Source of the DNA: a virus
Taxonomy: Duplodnaviria; Heunggongvirae; Uroviricota; Caudoviricetes
DNA: 7,668 bases
Reading direction: 5' to 3' (one strand)
Virus record (IMG/VR): IMGVR_UViG_2651869696_000012
In this document: positions 1 through 7,668 of the stretch, piece after piece
Layout: each line of letters begins with the position of its first letter
Numbering within the stretch: position 1 is the first letter of the stretch
The notes under the pieces: model-generated
What the model was told of the DNA's origin: nothing
The model's database searches: none
What the model saw: the letters and a program-made list of their open reading frames with translations, nothing else
Translations under genes and position numbers: made by a program

Positions 1-20
1 AACTTTTAAGATAAAAGATA

Positions 21-40
21 GATATCCCAGAAAGGATATC
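21..40. promoter_or_regulatory. Perfect inverted repeat GATATCC-n6-GGATATC upstream of the methyltransferase gene; candidate operator
   Basis: Read directly: gatatcc (21-27), spacer cagaaa, ggatatc (34-40). Lies about 80 bp upstream of the ATG at 121. Function is inferred only. Confidence 0.25.
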
Positions 41-120
41 CGTTTAGAAAACCTATTAAGTATCTCTTAAAAGAGAGCAAACCTTGTCAAGAGTGATTGC
101 AATAAAAATTTTTATTTCTT

Positions 121-783
121 ATGTCAATTGAGTGTATTTTAATCGGGAAGCATCATGGGGGTTCTGATTACTGGAGAACTCCATTTTTGTTATTTAAGAA
201 CTTACACCGTGAATTTATTTTCAGTCTGGATGGTGCTGCAACTGAGCATGACGCATTGTTGCCACGGTTCACCGATGATATCCACAATCAGTCATGGGTT
301 GGTGAAAGGGTATTCTGTAACCCACCATACAGCGACACTAAAACATTCCTCGTAAAAGCATCTGAAGCAGATTTAGCGGTATTCCTGATGCCCTACCGAC
401 CCCAAACCATATACTGGCTTAAGCACATCTTCACAAACCTGCTTTGCCATGAAATCCGTATTCTTCATCGTGCAGTTAAATGCCTTCCACCAGCAGGGCA
501 TAACGGGCTTGTTATTCGTTCACCGTTTCCAAGTGCAGTCGTTGTTTTTAAAAAAGAACCACGTAAGCATGAAATTACACAGATGGTTTGCTGTGCTGAC
601 ACGCTATTACCGTTAACCATCATTAACCGTGGTGGACTAAGAGGAAGACCCACCATTTACCCACCTGAGACGCTCGACAGCTTCACAAAGCTATACAGGC
701 AAGGAAAACCCATTAAGTGCATTGCAGATGCTCTCAGAATGCCTCTGAGCACGTCATACAGGATTGCTCAAAGGTTGAGCTAA
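121..783 (+). CDS. Phage-type N6-adenine DNA methyltransferase (Dam family) with C-terminal Hin/resolvase-like HTH domain
   Basis: 220-aa ORF. N-terminal part has W-R-T-P near the N-terminus, FSLDGAAT, and the catalytic NPPY tetrapeptide (..VFCNPPYSD..), the pattern I recall for the phage Dam family (Pfam PF05869). The C-terminal ~45 aa (GRPTIYPPETLDSFTKLYRQGKPIKCIADALRMPLSTSYRIAQRL) aligns by eye with the Hin invertase HTH (GRP...G.P...iA......ST.YR). No Shine-Dalgarno before the ATG (AT-rich leader); first in-frame start after the stop at 103-105. Confidence 0.8.
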   Translation: MSIECILIGKHHGGSDYWRTPFLLFKNLHREFIFSLDGAATEHDALLPRFTDDIHNQSWVGERVFCNPPYSDTKTFLVKASEADLAVFLMPYRPQTIYWLKHIFTNLLCHEIRILHRAVKCLPPAGHNGLVIRSPFPSAVVVFKKEPRKHEITQMVCCADTLLPLTIINRGGLRGRPTIYPPETLDSFTKLYRQGKPIKCIADALRMPLSTSYRIAQRLS

Positions 784-831
784 AATTCTCATATAGAGCA
801 CTGATTATGAGAGTGTTAAAGAGGCGATTTC

Positions 832-851
832 CCCTGTCTGGGGTTATTCGC
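832..851. repeat. Copy 1 of a ~20-bp motif CCCTKTCTGGGGTTAT(T)CGC containing a short CCC/GGG hairpin
   Basis: cccctgtctggggttattcgc read directly; a second copy lies ~170 bp downstream (1001-1019). Confidence 0.5.
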
Positions 852-1000
852 TTTTTACTGGAAGGGTTATTTTACAGAGGTTTTTCAAACCCCCTCAATA
901 ATAGAAACGAGCAACAAACGAAGAGCGAGAAATAAAATATTGAGACTGGTGAACGGGGCCTGTAAAGATTGTTTAAGAAGTCGGTTAAGAAGGTGGCTCT

Positions 1001-1019
1001 CCCTTTCTGGGGTTATCGC
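1001..1019. repeat. Copy 2 of the CCCTKTCTGGGGTTATCGC motif
   Basis: ccctttctggggttatcgc; shares the TCTGGGGTTAT core with the copy at 832-851. Confidence 0.5.
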
Positions 1020-1048
1020 CCTGCATCTTAGTGAGTCCAGGAAGTTCT

Positions 1049-1220
1049 CTGTGAAGGGTCTTGTCAGTCCTTTATATTGGGTGATTACAACTCTTTGAAA
1101 AATAAGAACTTTTAGAAATCACTGTTAAGGTTACAGAGTTAACTGTGAAGAGGCTTGTCAGTTCTCTATATATGGCTAATTACAACTTATTGAAAAATAA
1201 GAACTTTTAGAAGTTACTGT
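1049..1220. repeat. Two tandem ~78-bp imperfect direct repeats (units 1049-1125 and 1143-1220) separated by 17 bp
   Basis: Unit 1 ctgtgaagggtcttgtcagtcctttatattgggtgattacaactctttgaaaaataagaacttttagaaatcactgt; unit 2 ctgtgaagaggcttgtcagttctctatatatggctaattacaacttattgaaaaataagaacttttagaagttactgt. Roughly 80-85% identical by eye. Each starts CTGTGAAG and ends ACTGT. Confidence 0.7.
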
Positions 1221-1302
1221 CAGAGAGGTGAACACTTGATAGATACAGCTTTCCGGTTATGTCAAGCTGTTTTTTAATAGATAGCACAAAATGCTAAAGA
1301 TG

Positions 1303-1331
1303 CCCCTATACCATCTCGTACAGGGGGTTTT
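1303..1331 (+). terminator. Candidate intrinsic terminator (possibly bidirectional)
   Basis: Stem cccctatac (1303-1311) / gtacagggg (1318-1326) with one mismatch, 6-nt loop, then GTTTT. Sits between the repeat region and the 3' end of the minus-strand small ORF. Confidence 0.4.
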
Positions 1332-1340
1332 GAAGGGAGT

Positions 1341-1517
1341 TTAACGGGGTTCTGTGTGGTCATTATCCTTAAGGTCAAGCGTCCATGTACGACCGAACAG
1401 TTTAAATACAACAAGCACTCTGACGAGGATGTAGCGGAGTATCAGACCTGCAATCAGCCCAACACCTCCACCAGCCCATACATCAGGTGACCCCAGTTCA
1501 GGAGGGAGATTTACCAT
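1341..1517 (-). CDS. Hypothetical small membrane protein (58 aa from the internal Met; the track ORF extends to 1586)
   Basis: Minus-strand ORF with a hydrophobic segment (GGVGLIAGLILRYILVRVLVVF). The Met at 1515-1517 is preceded on the minus strand by AAGGA with a 6-nt spacer; the upstream Met at 1586 has no SD and lies inside repeat R1. It is the only minus-strand candidate and is locally GC-richer, so it could be spurious. Confidence 0.3.
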   Translation of the reverse strand: MVNLPPELGSPDVWAGGGVGLIAGLILRYILVRVLVVFKLFGRTWTLDLKDNDHTEPR

Positions 1518-1532
1518 TAGTTTTCCTTGTAA

Positions 1533-1629
1533 GACGCTTTCAATCGCATTCTGACACAAAAAAGTACCTGACCTTATAGTTGACATGAAGAGGCCGTTTA
1601 ACTCGTTACAGAGCGATTGAAGAAGTCTG
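1533..1629. repeat. R1: ~97-bp element with ~20-bp terminal inverted repeats; copy 1 of 2
   Basis: Left arm gacgctttcaatcgcattctgacacaaaaaa, variable core, right arm gtttaactcgttacagagcgattgaagaagtctg. Left arm and reverse complement of right arm match (GACgCTtTCAATCGC..TCTG vs GACttCTTCAATCGCTCTG). Second copy at 3200-3320. Confidence 0.7.
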
Positions 1630-1765
1630 TGTGCAATGCAAAAACCATGCGGCCATTCTCATGGTTGATTCGGTTTATCGAATAAACCTCATAGCCACGC
1701 CTCATATTTTACTCTCCCCATAGAACCATTATACCACAGATGTTAATGAAATGTTAAAAAAATGC

Positions 1766-1806
1766 TTGACATTAGTCTTTGAAAATGCTAGCATTGCCTA
1801 TATAAG
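1766..1806 (+). promoter_or_regulatory. Sigma70-like promoter region for the four-gene cassette (two overlapping candidate configurations)
   Basis: TTGACA (1766-1771), 17-bp spacer, extended -10 TGcTAGCAT (1786-1794); alternatively TTGAAA (1779-1784), 16 bp, TATAAG (1801-1806). A-rich tract immediately upstream (1745-1763) resembles an UP element. First gene starts at 1845. Confidence 0.45.
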
Positions 1807-1844
1807 TTAACAGAGAATTAACAATTATAAGGACTAGCTTATGA

Positions 1845-2402
1845 ATGAACGACAGAGAATTTAGAGCGATGCTTCAGGCATCAAGAGAACGCAACAAGCA
1901 CAACTCCTACAGCTACACAGACACCCCCACCAGCCACGAAGTACCCAAGTTCACCAGAGCAGAGCGCAAAGGCATTGACGAAGTAATTCGGGCAATTACA
2001 CCGAGGGAGCGTTATATGTCAATCAGAAAGAGCACGAAGAACACTATCAAGAATTATTTGAATAACTTTGATTCTTACGAGCAGTCATCAAGCTTGCTTG
2101 ATGATATTTTTATTGGATTCTGTAGAAGTGAAGGTCACCCGAAATACAACAAAAAACTATTTTATCTTCTAAAGAATCTTGATGAAATTAACGCAGCCAG
2201 CGTGACAAATTATCTTCAGCGACAAGCAACCAGACTTAGTTATGAATTACCAAGCGATAAATATTGTGCATTGCTTGCTGTAATGTGTGCAAAGCTAATT
2301 GGTGTTGTTGAACATCATGTTGCCGTTGGGAATATTGAACCAATGGAAAACGAGCAACCAGATTTCGAGTTTGACCCGTATTTAGTTACAGAGGAATTTT
2401 AA
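1845..2402 (+). CDS. Hypothetical protein (185 aa) with acidic C-terminal tail
   Basis: ORF with AAGGA 11 nt upstream; first gene of a translationally coupled cassette; C-terminus ..ENEQPDFEFDPYLVTEEF. No family recognised. Confidence 0.7.
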   Translation: MNDREFRAMLQASRERNKHNSYSYTDTPTSHEVPKFTRAERKGIDEVIRAITPRERYMSIRKSTKNTIKNYLNNFDSYEQSSSLLDDIFIGFCRSEGHPKYNKKLFYLLKNLDEINAASVTNYLQRQATRLSYELPSDKYCALLAVMCAKLIGVVEHHVAVGNIEPMENEQPDFEFDPYLVTEEF

Positions 2403-2403
2403 A

Positions 2404-2685
2404 ATGAAAAACAGACACACTCTAACCCGTATTTCAGAGGAAGCTTTTAATGAGCTTACCAGAATTAAACGAGCGACTAACTTGCCTCATCAAACTGTTA
2501 TGCAACTTGCAATTGCTAAAGAAGTTACTGAGTCGGATTTACTTAAATATCCAGTCTCTAAAGGTCGCAAACACATCCGAATTGCTCAGGACGCTTTAGA
2601 TACTTTGAAGGCACTTAACAGCTTTAAAATTGATATTGCCCGACTATTGAGTATTAAGATTCACAAGTTAGCGATGGAGGTTTAA
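2404..2685 (+). CDS. Putative ribbon-helix-helix-like DNA-binding protein (93 aa)
   Basis: GAGG 9 nt upstream (inside the TTACAGAGG motif). N-terminus NRHTLTRISEEAFNELTRIKRATNLPHQTVMQLAIAKEV fits the beta-strand / helix A / turn / helix B pattern of CopG/Arc-type RHH proteins; assignment by pattern only. Confidence 0.65.
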   Translation: MKNRHTLTRISEEAFNELTRIKRATNLPHQTVMQLAIAKEVTESDLLKYPVSKGRKHIRIAQDALDTLKALNSFKIDIARLLSIKIHKLAMEV

Positions 2686-2900
2686 TGCTATGCGTTACCT
2701 TTGAATACCACACGGATAAAATGATTCGCTACATCTCCGACCTCCTGATTAAAGGAAACGGATTCGGTGACATCCATAACTCAAGAGATATTTTCATTAA
2801 AGCCATTGGCCCAAATGAAGTACTGAAAACAGCAGTTACACCGGAATGGTTTGAGCGTCACAAGATTGAATTAGGTTATTGGGGTGAGGAGGTTTTATGA
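2685..2900 (+). CDS. Hypothetical protein (71 aa)
   Basis: Start overlaps upstream stop (TAATG); GGAGG 4 nt upstream; no recognisable family. Confidence 0.6.
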   Translation: MLCVTFEYHTDKMIRYISDLLIKGNGFGDIHNSRDIFIKAIGPNEVLKTAVTPEWFERHKIELGYWGEEVL

Positions 2901-3184
2901 AACCTTGGCATGAAGATGTTAGACGATATTTTACAGAACACCTTATCTATGATGAATCCAGTGATTCCCTGTGCTGGTCTGATGGAGAGTCAGTCACGAT
3001 AAATACCGACGACTACGGCAACAAAACATTTAATATAGGCCGATATACTTTCTACGTGAAATATGTTGTCTGGTTCCTTTATCATGGCTATCAATCCAAT
3101 AAGCAAATTATCCATCGAAATGGTAACAGAGCCGATACCAGACCAAAAAATCTTATGCAAGTCCGAGACTTTAAGAGAAATTAG
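2897..3184 (+). CDS. Small HNH-type (HNH_3-like) endonuclease-fold protein, apparently degenerate
   Basis: ATGA overlap with upstream gene; GAGGAGG 4 nt upstream. Sequence ..IYDESSDSLCW..GNKTF..YTFYVKYVVWFLYHGYQSNKQIIHRNGNRADTRPKNLMQV follows the architecture of phage HNH proteins (YDPETG..W ... HRLAW ... DHIDGN..NN...NLR) but with substitutions at usually conserved positions (HRL to KYV; DNR/NN to DT). Confidence 0.7.
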   Translation: MKPWHEDVRRYFTEHLIYDESSDSLCWSDGESVTINTDDYGNKTFNIGRYTFYVKYVVWFLYHGYQSNKQIIHRNGNRADTRPKNLMQVRDFKRN

Positions 3185-3199
3185 AAAAATAGCTTCTCA

Positions 3200-3320
3200 G
3201 ACGCTCTCAATCGCATTCTAACGCAAAAAACTATCTTATTTTAGGGTGGGTAATACCACTGTACAGGCTACCCCTGAAAAAGACTGTTTAGCTCGTTACA
3301 GAGCGATTGAGGAGGTCTGG
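3200..3320. repeat. R2: ~121-bp element with ~20-bp terminal inverted repeats; copy 2 of 2
   Basis: Left arm gacgctctcaatcgcattctaacgcaaaaaa, 55-bp variable core, right arm gtttagctcgttacagagcgattgaggaggtctgg. Same arms as R1 at 1533-1629 with a different, longer core. Immediately after the cassette stop (3184) and 20 bp before the next gene. Confidence 0.7.
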
Positions 3321-3340
3321 TAAAAAGGAGATTTTAAGAA

Positions 3341-3670
3341 ATGAGAGAATTAAACTTTCCATTACAAATTATGCTTGATATCGACACAGTAAATATGATT
3401 CAACACTTCGTTGATTCCGGTGTATCAATTGACTTTGACAGGCTGTTAAAGCTGATGGCTGATAATGCAGAAAACATCTCTGACTTTATTCAGTCGGTGG
3501 AGTTTAACGAGCCTCGAATGATGCTACCAATTACCGACTCAAACATGAAAAGATTGGTTATCGAGCAAACGAACAAACACAGTATTTCCCCAGAGCAATT
3601 TTTGAAAGGTGCTGTGACAATCCTGCACAGCGATAATATTCTGGTGACGGATTCTATGAGGGTTCACTAA
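3341..3670 (+). CDS. Hypothetical acidic protein (109 aa)
   Basis: AAGGAG 10 nt upstream; Asp/Glu-rich; no recognisable family. Confidence 0.7.
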   Translation: MRELNFPLQIMLDIDTVNMIQHFVDSGVSIDFDRLLKLMADNAENISDFIQSVEFNEPRMMLPITDSNMKRLVIEQTNKHSISPEQFLKGAVTILHSDNILVTDSMRVH

Positions 3671-3747
3671 TGGGATTGATAATTGCTTGGACAGCTTTAG
3701 GTTTATTTGTTGGTTGCTGGGTGGGCAACGCGGTAAATAAAAATTGA
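3670..3747 (+). CDS. Candidate 25-aa single-pass hydrophobic peptide (MGLIIAWTALGLFVGCWVGNAVNKN)
   Basis: ATG at 3670-3672 overlaps the TAA of the upstream gene (TAATG coupling); stop TGA at 3745-3747. Below the ORF-track cutoff; hydrophobic core with polar C-terminus. Confidence 0.3.
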   Translation: MGLIIAWTALGLFVGCWVGNAVNKN

Positions 3748-3771
3748 TGTTACCAATCTGTTAAAAGGCTG

Positions 3772-3800
3772 TTGACAAATAATCTTAAGCATGACATAAT
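3772..3800 (+). promoter_or_regulatory. Sigma70-like promoter
   Basis: TTGACA (3772-3777), 17-bp spacer, CATAAT (3795-3800); AT-rich upstream. Confidence 0.5.
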
Positions 3801-3806
3801 TGTATA

Positions 3807-3998
3807 TATAGGAAGAGCAATTTTTCCTAAAATCATATTTTCAATAATCCGATGGATGGATATTCTGAGTTGGAAAGGTGCAATGCTTTTCGTCATGGCC
3901 TTTCAGTTTAGTCTGAGAGGTCATCTCAAAAAGTGCTTAATCATTCATTATTGAACCCTTACAGCTTTGCCCTAACTCATGATTAGGGCGTTTTCTTT
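3807..3998 (+). ncRNA. Candidate small RNA (~190 nt) between the promoter and an intrinsic terminator
   Basis: No ORF with an RBS in this unit (the 60-aa track ORF starts inside the -35 box). Internal 12-bp stem ATGGCCTTTCAG (3895-3906) / CTGAGAGGTCAT (3913-3924) with a 6-nt loop; its two non-Watson-Crick positions are G-U wobbles only in the + strand RNA. Ends at the terminator at 3969-3998. Coordinates approximate. Confidence 0.3.
3969..3998 (+). terminator. Intrinsic terminator
   Basis: Stem gccctaa (3969-3975) / ttagggc (3983-3989), 7-nt loop, followed by gTTTTCTTT. Confidence 0.6.
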
Positions 3999-4067
3999 AA
4001 GAGTTTTTAAACAGAGCTTTTAAAGAAAGTTTTTCCTGAAACTTCGTTAACGTTAAAGCAAACCTTC

Positions 4068-4101
4068 AAAGCCCTTCACAGATTATGTTTAGGGCTTTTT
4101 T
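4068..4101 (+). terminator. Second candidate intrinsic terminator
   Basis: aaagccct (4068-4075) / agggcttt (4091-4098) with a 15-nt loop, followed by a T run to 4101. Loop is large, so lower confidence. Confidence 0.45.
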
Positions 4102-4218
4102 CAGCTTTTAAAAAGCATACTTGGCAAACGCCTTTTAAGTCTCTTCTAAGTTCGTAGGCTGTCAGGTGTGCTTTTTAAAAACTGAAACATAAATTATCTT
4201 AGAAGAGGAAAAATAATA

Positions 4219-4923
4219 ATGTCTATCCGTGATGAACATGAAATGATTATCGAAAACAAACCAAGTGCACTTGATATTCACGAATTAAGTTTGCGTGAAT
4301 CTTTTGATAGAGCTTGGCGGGAATCACACGAAGTAAATAAAGGTCCATATATTCCACCAGAACCACTCGAGATTCCAAGAGTTGAAATTGATTTTTCGAT
4401 GAATGAGGAATGTGAGCTTGATTTGAAACTGAAGCTGCAACGCCGATATTTCCAAGCTATTAAAGACTCTCAAGAAGCAATGAGAAGTGTTTACGAGAAA
4501 ATTCAGTCCAAGCTTGAAGACGAAATCGACGAAATGGCTATTTTGATGGAGCTTCAAACCAATTCTTATGCTTATTTCTCTCGACTAGACCGTGACGGTT
4601 GGGGGTATGACCCTGTAGAGATTGGTAAAGTGATTGCAGATTTACCAGAAGGTCAAAGGGTTATTCGTACGGAAAGGGCTATCAGAGCGCCACATCAACT
4701 GTCTCTAATTGTTGCTGATAAATCACAAGCTGAGCTTGAAGAAATTGCCAAAGAGAAACTGATGAAAGCAAGAGAAAATGAGATTAATTTGCTGAAATCA
4801 AGACTGGCTAAGCTGATTAGTGACCATCAAGCGCTGGCTAAGGAGTACCGTCAAGAGTTGGCACAGATTATCAGCTTCAATGATTTTCTGAGTGTTCCAC
4901 GAGAATTTAGCAAGGCTGTTTAA
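4219..4923 (+). CDS. Hypothetical glutamate-rich, probably helical/coiled-coil protein (234 aa)
   Basis: GAGG 10 nt upstream; long charged helical-looking stretches (..AELEEIAKEKLMKARENEINLLKSRLAKLISDHQALAKEYRQELAQ..); no recognisable family. Confidence 0.75.
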   Translation: MSIRDEHEMIIENKPSALDIHELSLRESFDRAWRESHEVNKGPYIPPEPLEIPRVEIDFSMNEECELDLKLKLQRRYFQAIKDSQEAMRSVYEKIQSKLEDEIDEMAILMELQTNSYAYFSRLDRDGWGYDPVEIGKVIADLPEGQRVIRTERAIRAPHQLSLIVADKSQAELEEIAKEKLMKARENEINLLKSRLAKLISDHQALAKEYRQELAQIISFNDFLSVPREFSKAV

Positions 4924-4945
4924 TTATGCATATGTGAGGTGATGA

Positions 4946-5161
4946 ATGATTGATTTAACAGAACGCTATGAAACTATTAAGTCTGTTTGTGAAAACTTAA
5001 AGTTACAAACTAAGCCAGCCTTAAGAATTAAAACCAAACATCAAATTATCACCTCACGCAAACCAAAAACACGCAAGATTCCAAAGTGGTGTATCGACCG
5101 TATCCCTTCCGATGCTCAAATTATAGGTGAAACGGAACTACATTATCTTGTCAGGCATTAA
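4946..5161 (+). CDS. Hypothetical small basic protein (71 aa)
   Basis: TGAGG 6 nt upstream; Lys/Arg-rich (..RIKTKHQIITSRKPKTRKIPKW..); follows the upstream gene after 22 bp. Confidence 0.6.
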   Translation: MIDLTERYETIKSVCENLKLQTKPALRIKTKHQIITSRKPKTRKIPKWCIDRIPSDAQIIGETELHYLVRH

Positions 5162-5210
5162 AAAAGATTGGTTGGGTGTATGAGATAGGTTCTATCGAAT
5201 CTATAACACG

Positions 5211-5252
5211 GGGAGAGATTATCGATATTATTCGGTAGTTTCTCCCTTTTTT
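5211..5252 (+). terminator. Candidate intrinsic terminator after the 71-aa gene
   Basis: Stem gggagaga (5211-5218) / tttctccc (5239-5246), one G-U, 20-nt loop, followed by TTTTTT (5247-5252). Confidence 0.5.
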
Positions 5253-5260
5253 GTATGTGT

Positions 5261-5330
5261 GCTACGTGAAATCTTCTGAACAGATATACCCACCAAAAAT
5301 TATTTTTTACGTAGCTCACGCTTAACAGAG
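5261..5330. repeat. Repeat A: 70-bp element directly upstream of the tape-measure-like gene; copy 1 of 2
   Basis: gctacgtgaaatcttctgaacagatatacccaccaaaaattattttttacgtagctcacgcttaacagag. Contains inverted repeat GCTACGT...ACGTAGC and ends in TTAACAGAG, followed by the SD GAGGTGA. Second copy at 7406-7475. Confidence 0.7.
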
Positions 5331-5344
5331 GTGAAATATGAACA

Positions 5345-7393
5345 ATGGCACAATTTAAAGTTGATAGTTTTATCGTTGAGCTAGGCTTCAATGAAAACGT
5401 TATTAAGAGCTTGCAAAGAGTTGAAAAGGCAGCTTTGCAGTCAGCACAAAGAATTGAAAAGAACCTTAACAAAGGCTTCAAGATTAATACCAAGCAACTT
5501 GACAGCAATCTGACAAGTTCTTTGAAGTCAATGGAAGGAAAAATTAATAAGACCTTTGACCGTCTGGAAGCTAGAGCAAGAAACACAAAAGTTTTCCGTT
5601 TCACAAGTCAGGTTAACGATGCTGTTAATCCTCCAAAACAACCGAGACAGCCACGAATTAGCGGCAACAGAGCAATCACAGCAGCTTATTCAGCTAATAT
5701 GTCTAAGTTAAAGGGCTTTGACCCTATTTTGCAGAAATACATCAAATCTCAGTTTTACGGGCTATCTGCTAAAGCCGGTTCAATGGATTCTTCAAAATTC
5801 AATGAGAAGCTGTCTCAGTTAAATGCTTCAGTCAGAGAAGCAATTGCTAAAGCTAAAGGTCATACATCCACCAGCATTAATGGTGACAGAGCAGCTAGCA
5901 GCCTTGATAACCTGTCTTCGGCAGCAGTCAAAACAGCAGGTGCATTTATCTCAATGCAGGCTGTATTAGCCAGTTATCAGAAGATTATGGAAGTTGGTTT
6001 ACAGCGTGCAAGTGCTGAGCGTTCAATTGATTTCGTATTTGATAAAGATGCAGGTCAGGTAAAAGAGTTCACAAAGTCATTAGCTCAAACAACGGGTTTA
6101 GATATCGCTGAACTGCAATCACAGTTTGCTGGTTTTGGTGCTTCAGCTAAAGAATCTATGGGTATTCAGGGTTCTGAAGAACTTTTTAAAAATATGATTG
6201 GCTATTCTCGTTTAATGGGTCGAAGTGAAGAAGAGATTAAGCGAGCATTAACAGCGCTATCGCAGATGGCTGGTAAGGGTCAGGTGATGGCTGAGGAGCT
6301 GAAAGGTCAATTAGCTGAAGCTGTTCCTGGTATGGTTCAGGTATTCGCTAAAGCAACCGGAAAGACTGAACAGGAATTATTTGATGCCATGAAGAAGGGG
6401 GCTTTAAAATCTGCCGATACTCTTCAGAAGGTCACTCAGGAACTGAATAAACAAATCACCGCTAAAGGTGGCTGGAAAGCCATTTCAGAAAGTACACAGG
6501 CACAACTAGGGAACTTGAAAAACTCTTGGAATACCACGCTTGACAGTATTTTCAGAGGTTCTGAAGATGGTTTACAGGACTTCACAAGAAGCTTAACAAC
6601 GCTTTTAAATAGTCTTGGTGGGAGTGGTAAAAGTCTTGGTGAATCTCTTGGTAGTCTCATGACTTCTATGTCAAGTGGTGTGGATTCATTGACTGATATC
6701 AGCTACAGGGTAAGAGCATTCTTTGATGAGGTGACATTAGCTTACCGTGGTTTAACCGATGAACAAAAGAAAGTAGTTGATGCTTTAGGTTCTGGCTTGA
6801 TTAATAGTTTAAAAGTCTTGGCTGGTGTTATTGCTGTGAATAAAGTTGTTGGTGTAACCAGAAGTATTTACGGGCTTATGACTGCTATCACAAGATTAGG
6901 TCAGGTTGCTGATACTACAGCGGATAACGTGAATAGAAAGAATGGGAAACCATCAAGACTGAATCTTGGGAATATGCTATTAGCTGGTAGCGCTCTCTAT
7001 GCAGGTTATGAAAGATTAGCCTCTACACCTGAACGAATGGAAGCACAAGCTAAATTACCAGAGTTAGCTAAAGAATCTGGACTTAAGCCAGTATTTACTA
7101 TGGACGATGTGAAAGGTTGGTTTAATAGTGCAGCTATGAATCTTGCTAACTTCCAGCATCCAGAATTAAACAACATTAAGCAAGATGCGGCATTAACGAA
7201 TACGGATATCCAAAGCCTGAGAGATGAAATTAGTGCTTTGAGCAAACGTATTCAGGAGCCTGTGAAAGTTTCACTTGGTGGTGAAGTTGCTATTAAACCA
7301 GATGAAACCAGCTTTATGACATTTAACAGCAGTCTGTACGACCAATACGCAGAAGCTACGCTATTAAGTTCATCATTCCCAGAAGATGATTGA
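5345..7393 (+). CDS. Tape-measure-domain protein (682 aa)
   Basis: Long ORF with GAGGTGA 11 nt upstream. Central region ..RALTALSQMAGKGQVMAEELKGQLAEAVPGMVQVFAKATGKTEQELFDAMKKGALKSADTLQKV.. matches, as I recall it, the conserved tape-measure domain of lambda-H-like proteins (TIGR02675-type). Gly/Ser/Ala/Lys-rich with hydrophobic segments (..LAGVIAVNKVVGV..). Short for a classical tape measure and lacks adjacent tail genes. Confidence 0.8.
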   Translation: MAQFKVDSFIVELGFNENVIKSLQRVEKAALQSAQRIEKNLNKGFKINTKQLDSNLTSSLKSMEGKINKTFDRLEARARNTKVFRFTSQVNDAVNPPKQPRQPRISGNRAITAAYSANMSKLKGFDPILQKYIKSQFYGLSAKAGSMDSSKFNEKLSQLNASVREAIAKAKGHTSTSINGDRAASSLDNLSSAAVKTAGAFISMQAVLASYQKIMEVGLQRASAERSIDFVFDKDAGQVKEFTKSLAQTTGLDIAELQSQFAGFGASAKESMGIQGSEELFKNMIGYSRLMGRSEEEIKRALTALSQMAGKGQVMAEELKGQLAEAVPGMVQVFAKATGKTEQELFDAMKKGALKSADTLQKVTQELNKQITAKGGWKAISESTQAQLGNLKNSWNTTLDSIFRGSEDGLQDFTRSLTTLLNSLGGSGKSLGESLGSLMTSMSSGVDSLTDISYRVRAFFDEVTLAYRGLTDEQKKVVDALGSGLINSLKVLAGVIAVNKVVGVTRSIYGLMTAITRLGQVADTTADNVNRKNGKPSRLNLGNMLLAGSALYAGYERLASTPERMEAQAKLPELAKESGLKPVFTMDDVKGWFNSAAMNLANFQHPELNNIKQDAALTNTDIQSLRDEISALSKRIQEPVKVSLGGEVAIKPDETSFMTFNSSLYDQYAEATLLSSSFPEDD

Positions 7394-7405
7394 TAATAGT
7401 CGAAT

Positions 7406-7475
7406 GCTACGTGAAATCTCTTGAACAGATATACCCACTGAAAAATAGAATTTACGTACAACACGCTTAACAGAG
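7406..7475. repeat. Repeat B: second copy of the 70-bp element, directly downstream of the tape-measure-like gene
   Basis: gctacgtgaaatctcttgaacagatatacccactgaaaaatagaatttacgtacaacacgcttaacagag; about 85% identical to copy A by eye; same length and same TTAACAGAG 3' end. Confidence 0.7.
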
Positions 7476-7489
7476 AAAATACTTAAATA

Positions 7490-7533
7490 TCAAAGGCTTG
7501 GTTAAAAATGATTAAAATACACTAAGCCTTTGA
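7490..7533. other. Perfect 10-bp inverted repeat TCAAAGGCTT-n24-AAGCCTTTGA (hairpin or operator)
   Basis: Read directly; flanked by a short direct repeat ATCAAAGG (7488-7495, 7535-7542). No T run on the + strand; the - strand is T-rich after it. Confidence 0.4.
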
Positions 7534-7668
7534 AATCAAAGGAGAATTTAATGATTTACACTAATCAGCTTCGGGTGATGCTGCCAACTTACTGATTTAG
7601 TGTATGATGGTGTTTTTGAGGTGCTCCAGTGGCTTCTGTTTCTATCAGCTGTCCCTCCTGTTCAGCTA

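What the first reader, a model, noticed from the sequence alone, without database searches (positions are those of the whole stretch)
5261..7475. Tape-measure-like gene flanked by 70-bp direct repeats (A/B)
Near-identical 70-bp elements lie immediately before the start codon (5261-5330) and immediately after the stop codon (7406-7475) of the 682-aa gene. Copy A directly follows a terminator and supplies the 5' leader; copy B is not followed by an obvious gene. A single gene bracketed by direct repeats suggests a cassette acquired or exchanged by recombination between repeated regulatory elements, or a repeated promoter/operator unit.
Basis: partly seen in the sequence, partly recalled or inferred. 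Interest (0 to 1): 0.6.

Follow-up and report, generated by a model that had tools for sequence, protein, structure and literature searches.

The report
Repeated control palindrome before tail genes
The two 71-base repeats are copies of a palindromic control element placed in front of each of two phage-tail genes in a small mobile island of E. coli, not the borders of a swappable gene cassette, and the same kind of element occurs, not annotated as such in the T7 and P1 records I read, in phages T7 and P1.

Summary
The repeat is real: 5260-5330 and 7405-7475 share 60/71 bases, against at most 41/71 in shuffles. Copy B is followed by a gene. ATG 7551 starts a phage baseplate gene that an IS1 end (7574) cuts after 23 nt. 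The window is part of an ~11-kb serine-recombinase island found in about 10% of complete E. coli genomes. Its tape-measure and baseplate genes derive from lytic Felix O1-like phages, where the two genes abut without a spacer.

Each repeat has inverted arms (GCTACGTGAAATCT / AGATTTCACGTAGC, fixed spacing) around a promoter-like core with an invariant TAnnnT, followed by the box CACGCTTAACAGAG. Copy B precedes the baseplate gene in every sampled island that retains it. Copy A is missing in about a third of islands that still carry the gene. No locus shows the gene deleted or replaced, and similarity breakpoints fall inside the gene.

The cassette reading is therefore not supported, while the repeated regulatory unit reading is. 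Whether the unit is a promoter-operator or an RNA hairpin is unresolved, because no covariation was found. The arms belong to a wider element class also present in T7 (gene 18.5 start), P1 (cre promoter region) and other phages. I found no description of that class.

The parts
5210..5253 (+). Intrinsic-terminator-like hairpin plus T-run ending the 234-aa/71-aa operon, immediately upstream of copy A
   Evidence: 16-pair stem at 5210-5247 followed by TTTTTTG. It is conserved in all islands, including those without copy A.
5260..5330 (+). Repeat copy A (71 nt), the leader of the tape-measure gene
   Evidence: It is present in about two thirds of sampled islands.
5261..5274 (.). Copy A 5' arm GCTACGTGAAATCT
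   Evidence: The core CTACGTGAA is nearly invariant.
5277..5306 (+). Copy A promoter-like core: TGAACA (5277-5282), 18 nt, TATTTT (5301-5306)
   Evidence: Read from the sequence. T-A-n-n-n-T is invariant in 17 island variants. Activity is inferred, not shown.
5302..5315 (.). Copy A 3' arm ATTTTTTACGTAGC, overlapping the -10-like hexamer
5317..5330 (+). Copy A box CACGCTTAACAGAG, running into the Shine-Dalgarno GAGGTG (5328-5333)
   Evidence: It is part of the strand-specific TTA(A)CAGAG signal (8 observed against 0.28 expected).
5345..7393 (+). Tape measure protein gene, 682 aa
   Evidence: It is 29% identical to Felixounavirus TMPs, and its first 136 nt are 76% identical to the phage PHB11 gene.
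7405..7475 (+). Repeat copy B (71 nt), the leader of the baseplate gene
   Evidence: It is present in every sampled island that retains a baseplate gene.
7406..7419 (.). Copy B 5' arm GCTACGTGAAATCT
7422..7451 (+). Copy B promoter-like core: TGAACA, 18 nt, TAGAAT
   Evidence: sigma-70-type match with 9 of 12 positions.
7447..7460 (.). Copy B 3' arm AGAATTTACGTACA
7462..7475 (+). Copy B box CACGCTTAACAGAG
7482..7541 (+). Conserved strong hairpin between copy B and the baseplate ribosome-binding site
   Evidence: z = -4.3 for 7405-7550. Variants mostly keep pairing through G-U. It is absent in L007/L021-type islands.
7551..7573 (+). First 23 nt of the phage baseplate protein gene (MIYTNQL..), truncated
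   Evidence: The full gene in L001 is 80% aa and 91% nt identical to the Felixounavirus gene directly after the phage TMP.
7574..7668 (.). IS1 terminus that interrupts the baseplate gene or ends the contig
   Evidence: 100% identity to the IS1 end, including the terminal inverted repeat annotated in P1.

Best explanation
Each 71-nt repeat is a cis-regulatory 'gene head' that gives one tail gene its own expression control. The window lies in an ~11-kb integrative island that carries two adjacent tail genes of Felix O1-like phage origin, tape measure and a baseplate protein. In the phage these genes abut. In the island each is preceded by this module. The module has four parts: (1) a 5' arm GCTACGTGAAATCT; (2) an A/T-rich core with a sigma-70-like -35/-10 pair (TGAACA, 18 nt, TAGAAT or TATTTT); (3) the complementary 3' arm overlapping the -10 hexamer and the predicted start point; and (4) a leader box CACGCTTAACAGAG next to the ribosome-binding site.

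The most likely mechanism is a promoter. Its two inverted arms lie 41 bp apart centre to centre, at about -45 and over -10/+1. They would act as sequence-specific sites for a regulator that keeps the gene silent until a signal arrives, plausibly infection by the related phage.

Shown: the repeat, its anatomy, its conservation, its position between terminator and ribosome-binding site, the gene downstream of copy B, its absence from the phage's own TMP-baseplate junction, and the optional nature of copy A. Inferred: promoter activity, the existence and identity of a binding protein, and induction by phage.
For: Copy B heads a real gene. Copy A sits between a terminator and the TMP ribosome-binding site, so a new start of transcription is needed there. 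In phage PHB11 the two genes abut (27809-30016 and 30016-30813) and no arm or box is present. All 37 copies (23 variants) keep ACGTGAA-N38-ACGTA (N39 in one). T-A-n-n-n-T is invariant in 17 island variants while the rest of the core varies. Copy B scores as a sigma-70-type site. The arms are conserved in sequence without compensatory change, and some lineages keep only the 3' half, which fits sequence-specific recognition. In P1 the same palindrome (116-174) overlaps the annotated cre promoter P3cre, whose -10 hexamer (124-129) lies in the 5' arm. The island's second repeat family also has inverted arms around a promoter-like core. Felixounavirus early genes each carry a repeated promoter-hairpin-leader cassette. 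The dam leader at window 1-114 is homologous to a phage promoter region.
Against: There are no transcription data. The -35-like hexamer is present in only one of three core variants. Outside the island lineage the -10-like hexamer is weak (CAGATT) or absent. No candidate regulator is shared between the island and the P1-like contexts. PHB11 has no matching sites. In T7 the element encloses the ribosome-binding site and AUG of gene 18.5, which looks more like an RNA-level role. Islands without copy A have only the terminator before the TMP gene, so a dedicated promoter is not obligatory.
Confidence: 0.55

Rival explanations
1. The unit works as an RNA hairpin in the transcript. It could be a 5'-leader or intercistronic stem-loop that stabilises the mRNA, blocks exonucleases after the upstream gene, or sets translation of the downstream gene, rather than a DNA promoter/operator.
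For: The + strand folds better than shuffles (z = -2.05 and -2.22; the minus strand does not). L007_B has a perfect 14-bp stem. The T/C alternation before ACGTAG keeps G-U or G-C pairing (12 GU, 5 GC). In T7 the stem encloses the ribosome-binding site and AUG of gene 18.5, just after the sequence I take from memory to be the R18.5 RNase III site. In many lineages a start codon lies 15-41 nt downstream. Copy B begins 11 nt after the TMP stop codon.
Against: Covariation is not above controls in the island set (score reached by 90/500 shuffles) or the cross-lineage set (115/500). Single-arm changes are not compensated (L008_A G>A; Citrobacter AAA>ATT). RNAalifold finds no consensus structure. Some lineages keep the 3' arm sequence without a partner. 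Orientation relative to the neighbouring gene flips in P1 and L028. There is no Rfam match.
Confidence: 0.22
2. The repeats are recombination substrates that bracket an exchangeable tape-measure cassette. This would resemble the promoter/stem-loop cassettes proposed to shuffle genes in T4-type phages.
For: The sub-segments of the repeat are shuffled between positions A and B in different islands (window_A equals L005_B; window_B equals L004_B). TMP alleles differ in length (682-725 aa) and fall to 45-65% identity. Copy A looks like a secondary duplication of copy B.
Against: None of 32 loci shows the deletion or replacement product. All two-copy loci keep a TMP-sized interval. Breakpoints lie inside the gene and all over the island. 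Copy-A-less islands still have the gene. No arm-like motif lies at the island ends. The 27-nt spacing between arms does not fit serine- or tyrosine-recombinase core sites (established knowledge). The small recombinase gene is missing from several islands that have both copies.
Confidence: 0.05
3. The unit is a selfish or mobile mini-palindrome that inserts into intergenic DNA of unrelated phages and elements, with regulatory effects only as a by-product.
For: Distribution is sporadic across unrelated genomes: T7, P1-like plasmids, Gajwadongvirus-type podoviruses, and this island. Copy A is present or absent with sharp borders: the minimal leader GTAT|GAGGTGAAA compares with GTAT-GTGT[GCTACG...GCTTAACA]GAGGTGAAA. 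The terminal inverted repeats are long, up to 24 bp in L026.
Against: No target-site duplication is visible. No associated transposase or homing nuclease is shared. Each phage genome examined has a single copy. Copy B is fixed in the sampled islands that retain a baseplate gene.
Confidence: 0.13

Closest known systems
Palindrome in the cre regulatory region of phage P1 (nt 116-174, overlapping promoter P3cre/pR1) and its copies upstream of Cre-like genes in P1-like phage-plasmids
   Same: The arms match (GCGCTACGTAAAATCTG / CAGATTTCGCGTAGCGC against GCTACGTGAAATCT / AGATTTCACGTAGC). The ~53-nt span is the same, and a similar box follows the 3' arm (GCGCACTTAGC against GCTCACGCTTAAC). It lies 18-35 nt before a gene start and overlaps an annotated promoter.
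   Different: The P1 arms are longer and the centre is unrelated. The neighbouring genes are recombinases, not tail genes. Each genome has a single copy. The P1 record does not annotate the palindrome itself, so its function there is also unknown.
Sequence around the start of phage T7 gene 18.5 (36884-36935), downstream of E. coli promoter E
   Same: It has the exact 14-mer CTACGTGAAATCTG and TTTTTACGTA at the same ACGTGAA-N38-ACGTA spacing.
   Different: In T7 the loop holds the ribosome-binding site and AUG, and the 3' arm is coding (LEFLRK). In the island the whole unit is upstream of the ribosome-binding site.
Repeated promoter/stem-loop cassettes of large lytic phages: PeSL units of T4-type phages (recalled from memory, Arbiol et al. 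2010) and the repeated early cassettes seen here in Felixounavirus PHB11 (80-86.7 kb)
   Same: One repeated promoter-plus-inverted-repeat-plus-leader unit stands before each gene. The leader CTTAAACTAGGAG resembles CTTAACAGAGG.
   Different: In the phage cassettes the hairpin lies between the -35 and -10 hexamers, whereas here the arms lie outside the core. There is no sequence similarity to the arms. The gene-shuffling role proposed for PeSL units was tested here and not seen.
PLE satellites of Vibrio cholerae (parasites of the lytic myovirus ICP1), as an analogue for the surrounding island
   Same: It is a small chromosomal island with a large serine recombinase and no capsid or packaging genes. 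It has sequence ties to a strictly lytic myovirus group.
   Different: No protein homology to PLE was sought or seen. Excision, replication and packaging are untested. This island carries tail genes, and no helper has been demonstrated.
REP/BIME intergenic palindromes of enterobacteria
   Same: They are short intergenic imperfect palindromes found after genes, and they can stabilise upstream mRNA (established knowledge).
   Different: The sequence is different and A/T-rich, with a long 27-nt centre. The copy number is low, and the element is found in phages and islands rather than spread over the chromosome.

Membership tests
T7/P1-type phage palindrome class (defined here) | 5' arm CTACGTGAAATCT(G) and 3' arm (C)AGATTTYRCGTAG in inverted orientation | tested here: met
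   The island arms differ from the consensus at 0-3 positions.
T7/P1-type phage palindrome class (defined here) | Fixed spacing ACGTGAA-N38-ACGTA (span about 53 nt) | tested here: met
   The spacing is N38 in 36 of 37 island copies (N39 in L019_B) and also in T7 and the P1-like copies.
T7/P1-type phage palindrome class (defined here) | Box (C)GCAC(GC)TTA / CGTCACC directly after the 3' arm | tested here: met
   The island has GCTCACGCTTAAC.
Sigma-70 promoter | -35 and -10 hexamers at 16-18 nt spacing | tested here: inconclusive
   Copy B scores 9/12 and copy A 8/12 by eye. TAnnnT is invariant but the -35 is not conserved.
Sigma-70 promoter | Mapped transcription start | not testable with these tools
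   No expression data are available.
Intrinsic terminator | G+C-rich stem followed by a U-run | tested here: not met
   The scan does not call either copy. No T-run follows the 3' arm.
Structured RNA family (Rfam) | Match to a curated covariance model | tested here: not met
   Searches found no hit at the element with E up to 1.
Structured RNA (any) | Compensatory base changes in the stem | tested here: not met
T7-type RNase III processing site | About 20 bp or more of duplex with an internal loop | tested here: not met
   The stems are 9-14 bp with a 27-33-nt loop. In T7 the sequence I take from memory to be the R18.5 site lies just upstream of the element.
PeSL-like mobile regulatory cassette | Repeated promoter/stem-loop units flanking a single ORF | tested here: met
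PeSL-like mobile regulatory cassette | Gene gain, loss or replacement between units in related genomes | tested here: not met
Site-specific recombination site (res/hix/att/lox) | Two 11-13-bp inverted half-sites around a short (2-8 bp) crossover spacer | tested here: not met
   The arms are separated by 27 nt. No arm-like motif lies at the island ends.
MITE-like element | Terminal inverted repeats plus target-site duplication | tested here: inconclusive
   Inverted ends are present. No duplication is seen at the copy A filled/empty comparison.
Known satellite families (P4-like, PICI, cfPICI, PLE, PICMI), for the surrounding island | Family marker genes (e.g. psu/sid/delta/alpha; alpA/pri-rep; capsid genes) | tested here: not met
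   Pfam, PHROGs, NCBIfam and PADLOC scans give only Dam MTase, HNH, TMP, baseplate and serine recombinase.
Phage satellite (generic) | Helper-dependent excision, replication and packaging | not testable with these tools
   There is only indirect evidence: phage-derived genes and shared non-coding segments.

The most novel reading that the evidence does not exclude
The window belongs to an undescribed family of E. coli/Citrobacter/Erwinia islands that parasitise or defend against strictly lytic Felix O1-like phages. The islands supply their own tape measure and baseplate-core proteins. Each of these genes is switched by a palindromic element of a conserved class that is also present in T7 and P1 and for which I found no description. 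Because this class keeps its A/T-rich arm sequence even in G+C-rich phage contigs, it would be a general phage control signal read by a conserved, probably host-encoded, factor.
Probability: 0.3. Interest if true: 0.8.

Novelty: new variant of a known kind. Interest (0 to 1): 0.55.

Why it matters
Repeated regulatory cassettes in front of individual genes are a known design in large lytic phages, so the repeat itself is not a new principle. Two things go beyond that.

First, the arms define a sequence-conserved palindrome with fixed geometry. It occurs in model phages T7 and P1, in other podoviruses and in this island. It carries no palindrome annotation in the P1 and T7 records I read and has no Rfam match, and a literal search of the literature found only an incidental T7 construct sequence. 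A signal shared by such different genomes suggests a common reader, either a host factor or RNA polymerase itself. It is directly testable in T7 or P1.

Second, the repeats mark the two genes that a small serine-recombinase island has taken from lytic Felix O1-like phages. This points to a possible satellite or tail-interference system for a phage group used in Salmonella and E. coli typing and therapy.

Tried and rejected
- **Rfam:** scans of the window and of six phage loci gave nothing at the element.
- **BLAST against phages:** blastn of the repeat against 50,697 phage records found only chance-level hits.
- **Copy of a Felixounavirus promoter:** the arms, the box and the inverted-repeat pattern are absent from PHB11. 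The phage's recurrent intergenic motifs are different.
- **CTTAACAG:** it is enriched in PHB11 (22 against 5.4 expected, 8 in the first 520 nt). TTA(A)CAGAG is only 2-fold enriched and mostly coding. I treat this as suggestive only.
- **P1 late-promoter -22 box (AAGTGACTT):** unrelated.
- **Shared protein reader:** P1 Cra and all island proteins were compared with the P1-like contexts. Nothing is shared except a Cin-type invertase.
- **Hairpin covariation:** tested in island copies and across lineages, not above controls.
- **Leader peptide:** a 22-27-codon ORF ending at the TAA of the box is open in all island variants, but it has no Shine-Dalgarno sequence and is not kept in other lineages (read). 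Dropped.
- **Resemblances recalled from memory:** P1 ParB boxA (ATTTCAC), the DnaA box, NusB/E boxA, the MS2 operator, and the T7 class II pause signal. None fits in spacing or conservation, and none was tested further.
- **Tai tail-assembly-inhibition systems:** unrelated proteins.
- **Literature:** searches for a Felix O1-associated satellite or a satellite with a tape measure gene found none. The P1 genome paper is not held.
Full report
**Observation**

The window holds one long direct repeat, 5260-5330 and 7405-7475. The copies share 60 of 71 bases. In 100 shuffles the best 71-nt match never exceeded 41.

Between the copies lies a 682-aa ORF (5345-7393) that matches tape-measure models (PF20155; TIGR02675). 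Copy A follows a terminator-like hairpin with a T-run (5210-5247) and ends 14 nt before the start codon. Copy B starts 11 nt after the stop codon.

The last 95 nt of the window are an IS1 end. ATG 7551, preceded by GGAG, is the start of the 'phage baseplate protein' gene of related loci, cut here after 23 nt.

**Context**

The window has no close match in phage or plasmid collections apart from IS1. It does match a chromosomal region in 528 of 5426 complete E. coli genomes.

In uninterrupted relatives this is an ~11-12 kb island. Its gene order is:
- an optional small recombinase;
- a Dam methylase with an HTH tail;
- several small ORFs;
- an HNH nuclease;
- ORFs of 234 aa and 71 aa;
- the tape measure gene;
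- the baseplate gene;
- a large serine recombinase on the other strand.

The island is inserted at four or more sites: yciI/tonB, inside a DUF72 gene, dinB/lafU, and ymdF/wrbA. Most of its proteins match nothing in Pfam, PHROGs, NCBIfam or PADLOC.

The baseplate protein is about 80% identical in protein, and 91% over 521 nt, to a Felixounavirus gene lying directly after the phage tape measure gene. The island tape measure protein is only 29% identical to the phage protein, although its first 136 nt are 76% identical. In phage PHB11 the two genes abut with no spacer. The repeats are therefore island-specific insertions ahead of each gene.

Short, near-identical non-coding segments are shared between the island and the phage: 25/25, 33/35, 23/24 and 25/27 nt. 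Window 1-114, the dam leader, aligns to a phage divergent promoter region. Related islands exist in Citrobacter, E. albertii, another Escherichia species and, more distantly, Erwinia amylovora. I found no paper describing such an element.

**Anatomy of the repeat**

I compared 37 copies (23 variants) from E. coli genomes, IMG/VR and other species. The conserved parts are:
- the arms GCTACGTGAAATCT and AGATTTCACGTAGC, which form a perfect 14-bp inverted repeat in L007;
- the spacing ACGTGAA-N38-ACGTA (N39 in L019_B);
- a T-A-n-n-n-T hexamer just before the 3' arm;
- the box CACGCTTAA(C)AGAG.

The inner core comes in three interchangeable versions, and the 3' segment comes in several more. These are shuffled between positions A and B in different islands. 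In this window the core reads TGAACA, 18 nt, then TAGAAT (copy B, scored 9/12 by the scan) or TATTTT (copy A).

The box belongs to a wider signal. TTA(A)CAGAG occurs eight times on the + strand and never on the - strand, against 0.28 expected, mostly just upstream of genes.

**Test of the cassette idea**

Copy A is missing from L002 and L007 and from the Citrobacter, E. albertii and Escherichia sp. islands. There the terminator is followed directly by the ribosome-binding site, yet the gene is present. Copy B precedes the baseplate gene in every sampled island that retains it.

Of 32 loci with enough upstream sequence:
- 19 have two copies;
- 11 have copy B only;
- 2 have an IS inside the gene;
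- none has the terminator close to the baseplate start, which is the predicted A-by-B deletion product.

All 17 two-copy metagenome loci keep an interval of 2144-2275 nt. Sliding identity between islands shows a patchwork everywhere, with breakpoints inside the gene. The gene is therefore not a discrete unit bounded by the repeats.

**RNA or DNA?**

The + strand folds somewhat better than shuffles (z about -2). However, the stem core never varies, single-arm changes are not compensated, and covariation does not exceed the shuffle controls. There is no Rfam match.

**A wider class**

A scan for the arms alone found the same inverted repeat, at the same span, in unrelated viral contigs, and a second pattern gave at least 120 contigs.
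- **P1:** it carries the element at 116-174, between loxP and cra-cre. The -10 hexamer of the annotated promoter P3cre lies in the 5' arm, and the record does not annotate the palindrome.
- **P1-like contigs:** a Cre-type gene starts 18-29 nt downstream.
- **Gajwadongvirus-type podoviruses such as ECBP5:** there is one copy, in a non-coding region next to what look like phage-polymerase promoters.
- **T7:** the element lies at 36884-36935 and encloses the ribosome-binding site and AUG of gene 18.5, downstream of E. coli promoter E (sequence from PMC11863960).

Across about 25 lineages the arm sequences are kept, even in G+C-rich contigs. Some lineages keep only the 3' half. RNAalifold finds no common structure, and covariation is again at control level. 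No protein is shared between the island and these contexts.

**Interpretation**

The best-supported reading is that each repeat is a regulatory head giving one captured tail gene its own control. Most likely it is a promoter framed by two operator-like arms.

This matches two other observations. The island's second repeat family has inverted arms around CTGACA-18-TATAGT, with one compensatory change. The Felixounavirus early region has one repeated promoter-hairpin-leader cassette per gene.

An RNA-level role, a selfish mini-palindrome and the cassette model remain as rivals with decreasing support. Promoter activity, the regulator and any link to phage infection are inferences.

Noticed in passing
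window 1-7573; loci L001-L008, L021-L024: The window is part of an ~11-12 kb island with a large serine recombinase, found at four or more chromosomal sites in 528 of 5426 complete E. coli genomes. It carries tape measure and baseplate genes of Felix O1-like lytic phages but no capsid or packaging genes. Related islands occur in Citrobacter and Erwinia. It looks like an undescribed satellite or defence island.
   Followed up: partly
window 1-114: The leader of the Dam methylase gene aligns to the divergent promoter region of Felixounavirus PHB11 (8225-8490). The alignment includes a 25/25-nt identical stretch (window 3-27) with a hairpin and a CCTTGTCAAG box.
   Followed up: partly
window 1526-1629 and 3193-3319: This is a second repeated intergenic unit, 80-86% identical. 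It has long inverted arms (AGACGCTYTCAATCGC / GCGATTGARGARGTCT) showing one compensatory U-A to C-G change, a promoter-like core (CTGACA-18-TATAGT) and a TTACAGAG motif in the 3' arm. Copy 2 folds with z = -5.7.
   Followed up: partly
window 4099-4187: A near-perfect hairpin with 28-nt arms (z = -7.3) lies upstream of the 234-aa ORF. Its only Rfam hits are spurious ones below threshold.
   Followed up: partly
window 815-847/984-1016 and 1043-1125/1137-1220: Further direct and tandem (~95-nt period) repeats lie in the 560-nt non-coding region after the dam gene. Short GTTAAGAAGG-type strings there resemble iterated motifs at the left end of the phage genome.
   Followed up: partly
window 872, 1131, 1606, 1807, 2386, 3296, 5322, 7467: TTA(A)CAGAG occurs eight times on the + strand only (0.28 expected), mostly just upstream of gene starts. 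Its function is unknown, and it partly overlaps Shine-Dalgarno sequences.
   Followed up: partly
window 7482-7541: A strong conserved hairpin lies between copy B and the baseplate ribosome-binding site. Its 5' arm repeats the string ATCAAAGG that also forms the ribosome-binding site. Variants mostly keep pairing through G-U, which suggests an RNA-level role. It is absent in L007/L021-type islands.
   Followed up: partly
window 7574-7668: An IS1 terminus interrupts the baseplate gene after 23 nt. The window probably ends there because the assembly broke in the IS.
   Followed up: yes
window 5338-5358: A six-codon mini-ORF (ATG AAC AAT GGC ACA ATT TAA) overlaps the tape measure start. The Shine-Dalgarno GAGGTG is better spaced for it than for the annotated ATG at 5345.
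   Followed up: no
window 121-783: The Dam-type N6-adenine methyltransferase carries a C-terminal resolvase-type helix-turn-helix (weak HTH_7 hit), an unusual fusion that could bind DNA specifically.
   Followed up: no
L009/L010 (phage PHB11) 80200-86700: The Felixounavirus early region is built from about a dozen repeated promoter-hairpin-leader cassettes, one before each small gene. An example is TTTACA-GGGGGCTTAA..TTAAGCCCC-AGATAAAG ... CCTTAAACTAGGAGATTCAAAAATG.
   Followed up: no
L145 (P1) 116-174; L264 (T7) 36884-36935; L263 (ECBP5) about 6040-6103: The same conserved palindrome occurs in model phages with no palindrome annotation in the P1 and T7 records I read. In the ECBP5 group it sits in a 430-nt non-coding region with iteron-like repeats, next to what look like phage-polymerase promoters.
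   Followed up: partly
L001 about 18560-18600, L005 about 3640-3690, L008 about 2540-2590 (minus strand): A partial third copy of the repeat (5' arm plus about 8 nt, TCTACGTGAAATCTGTATAG) lies on the opposite strand about 1.3 kb inside the left end of several islands, outside this window.
   Followed up: no
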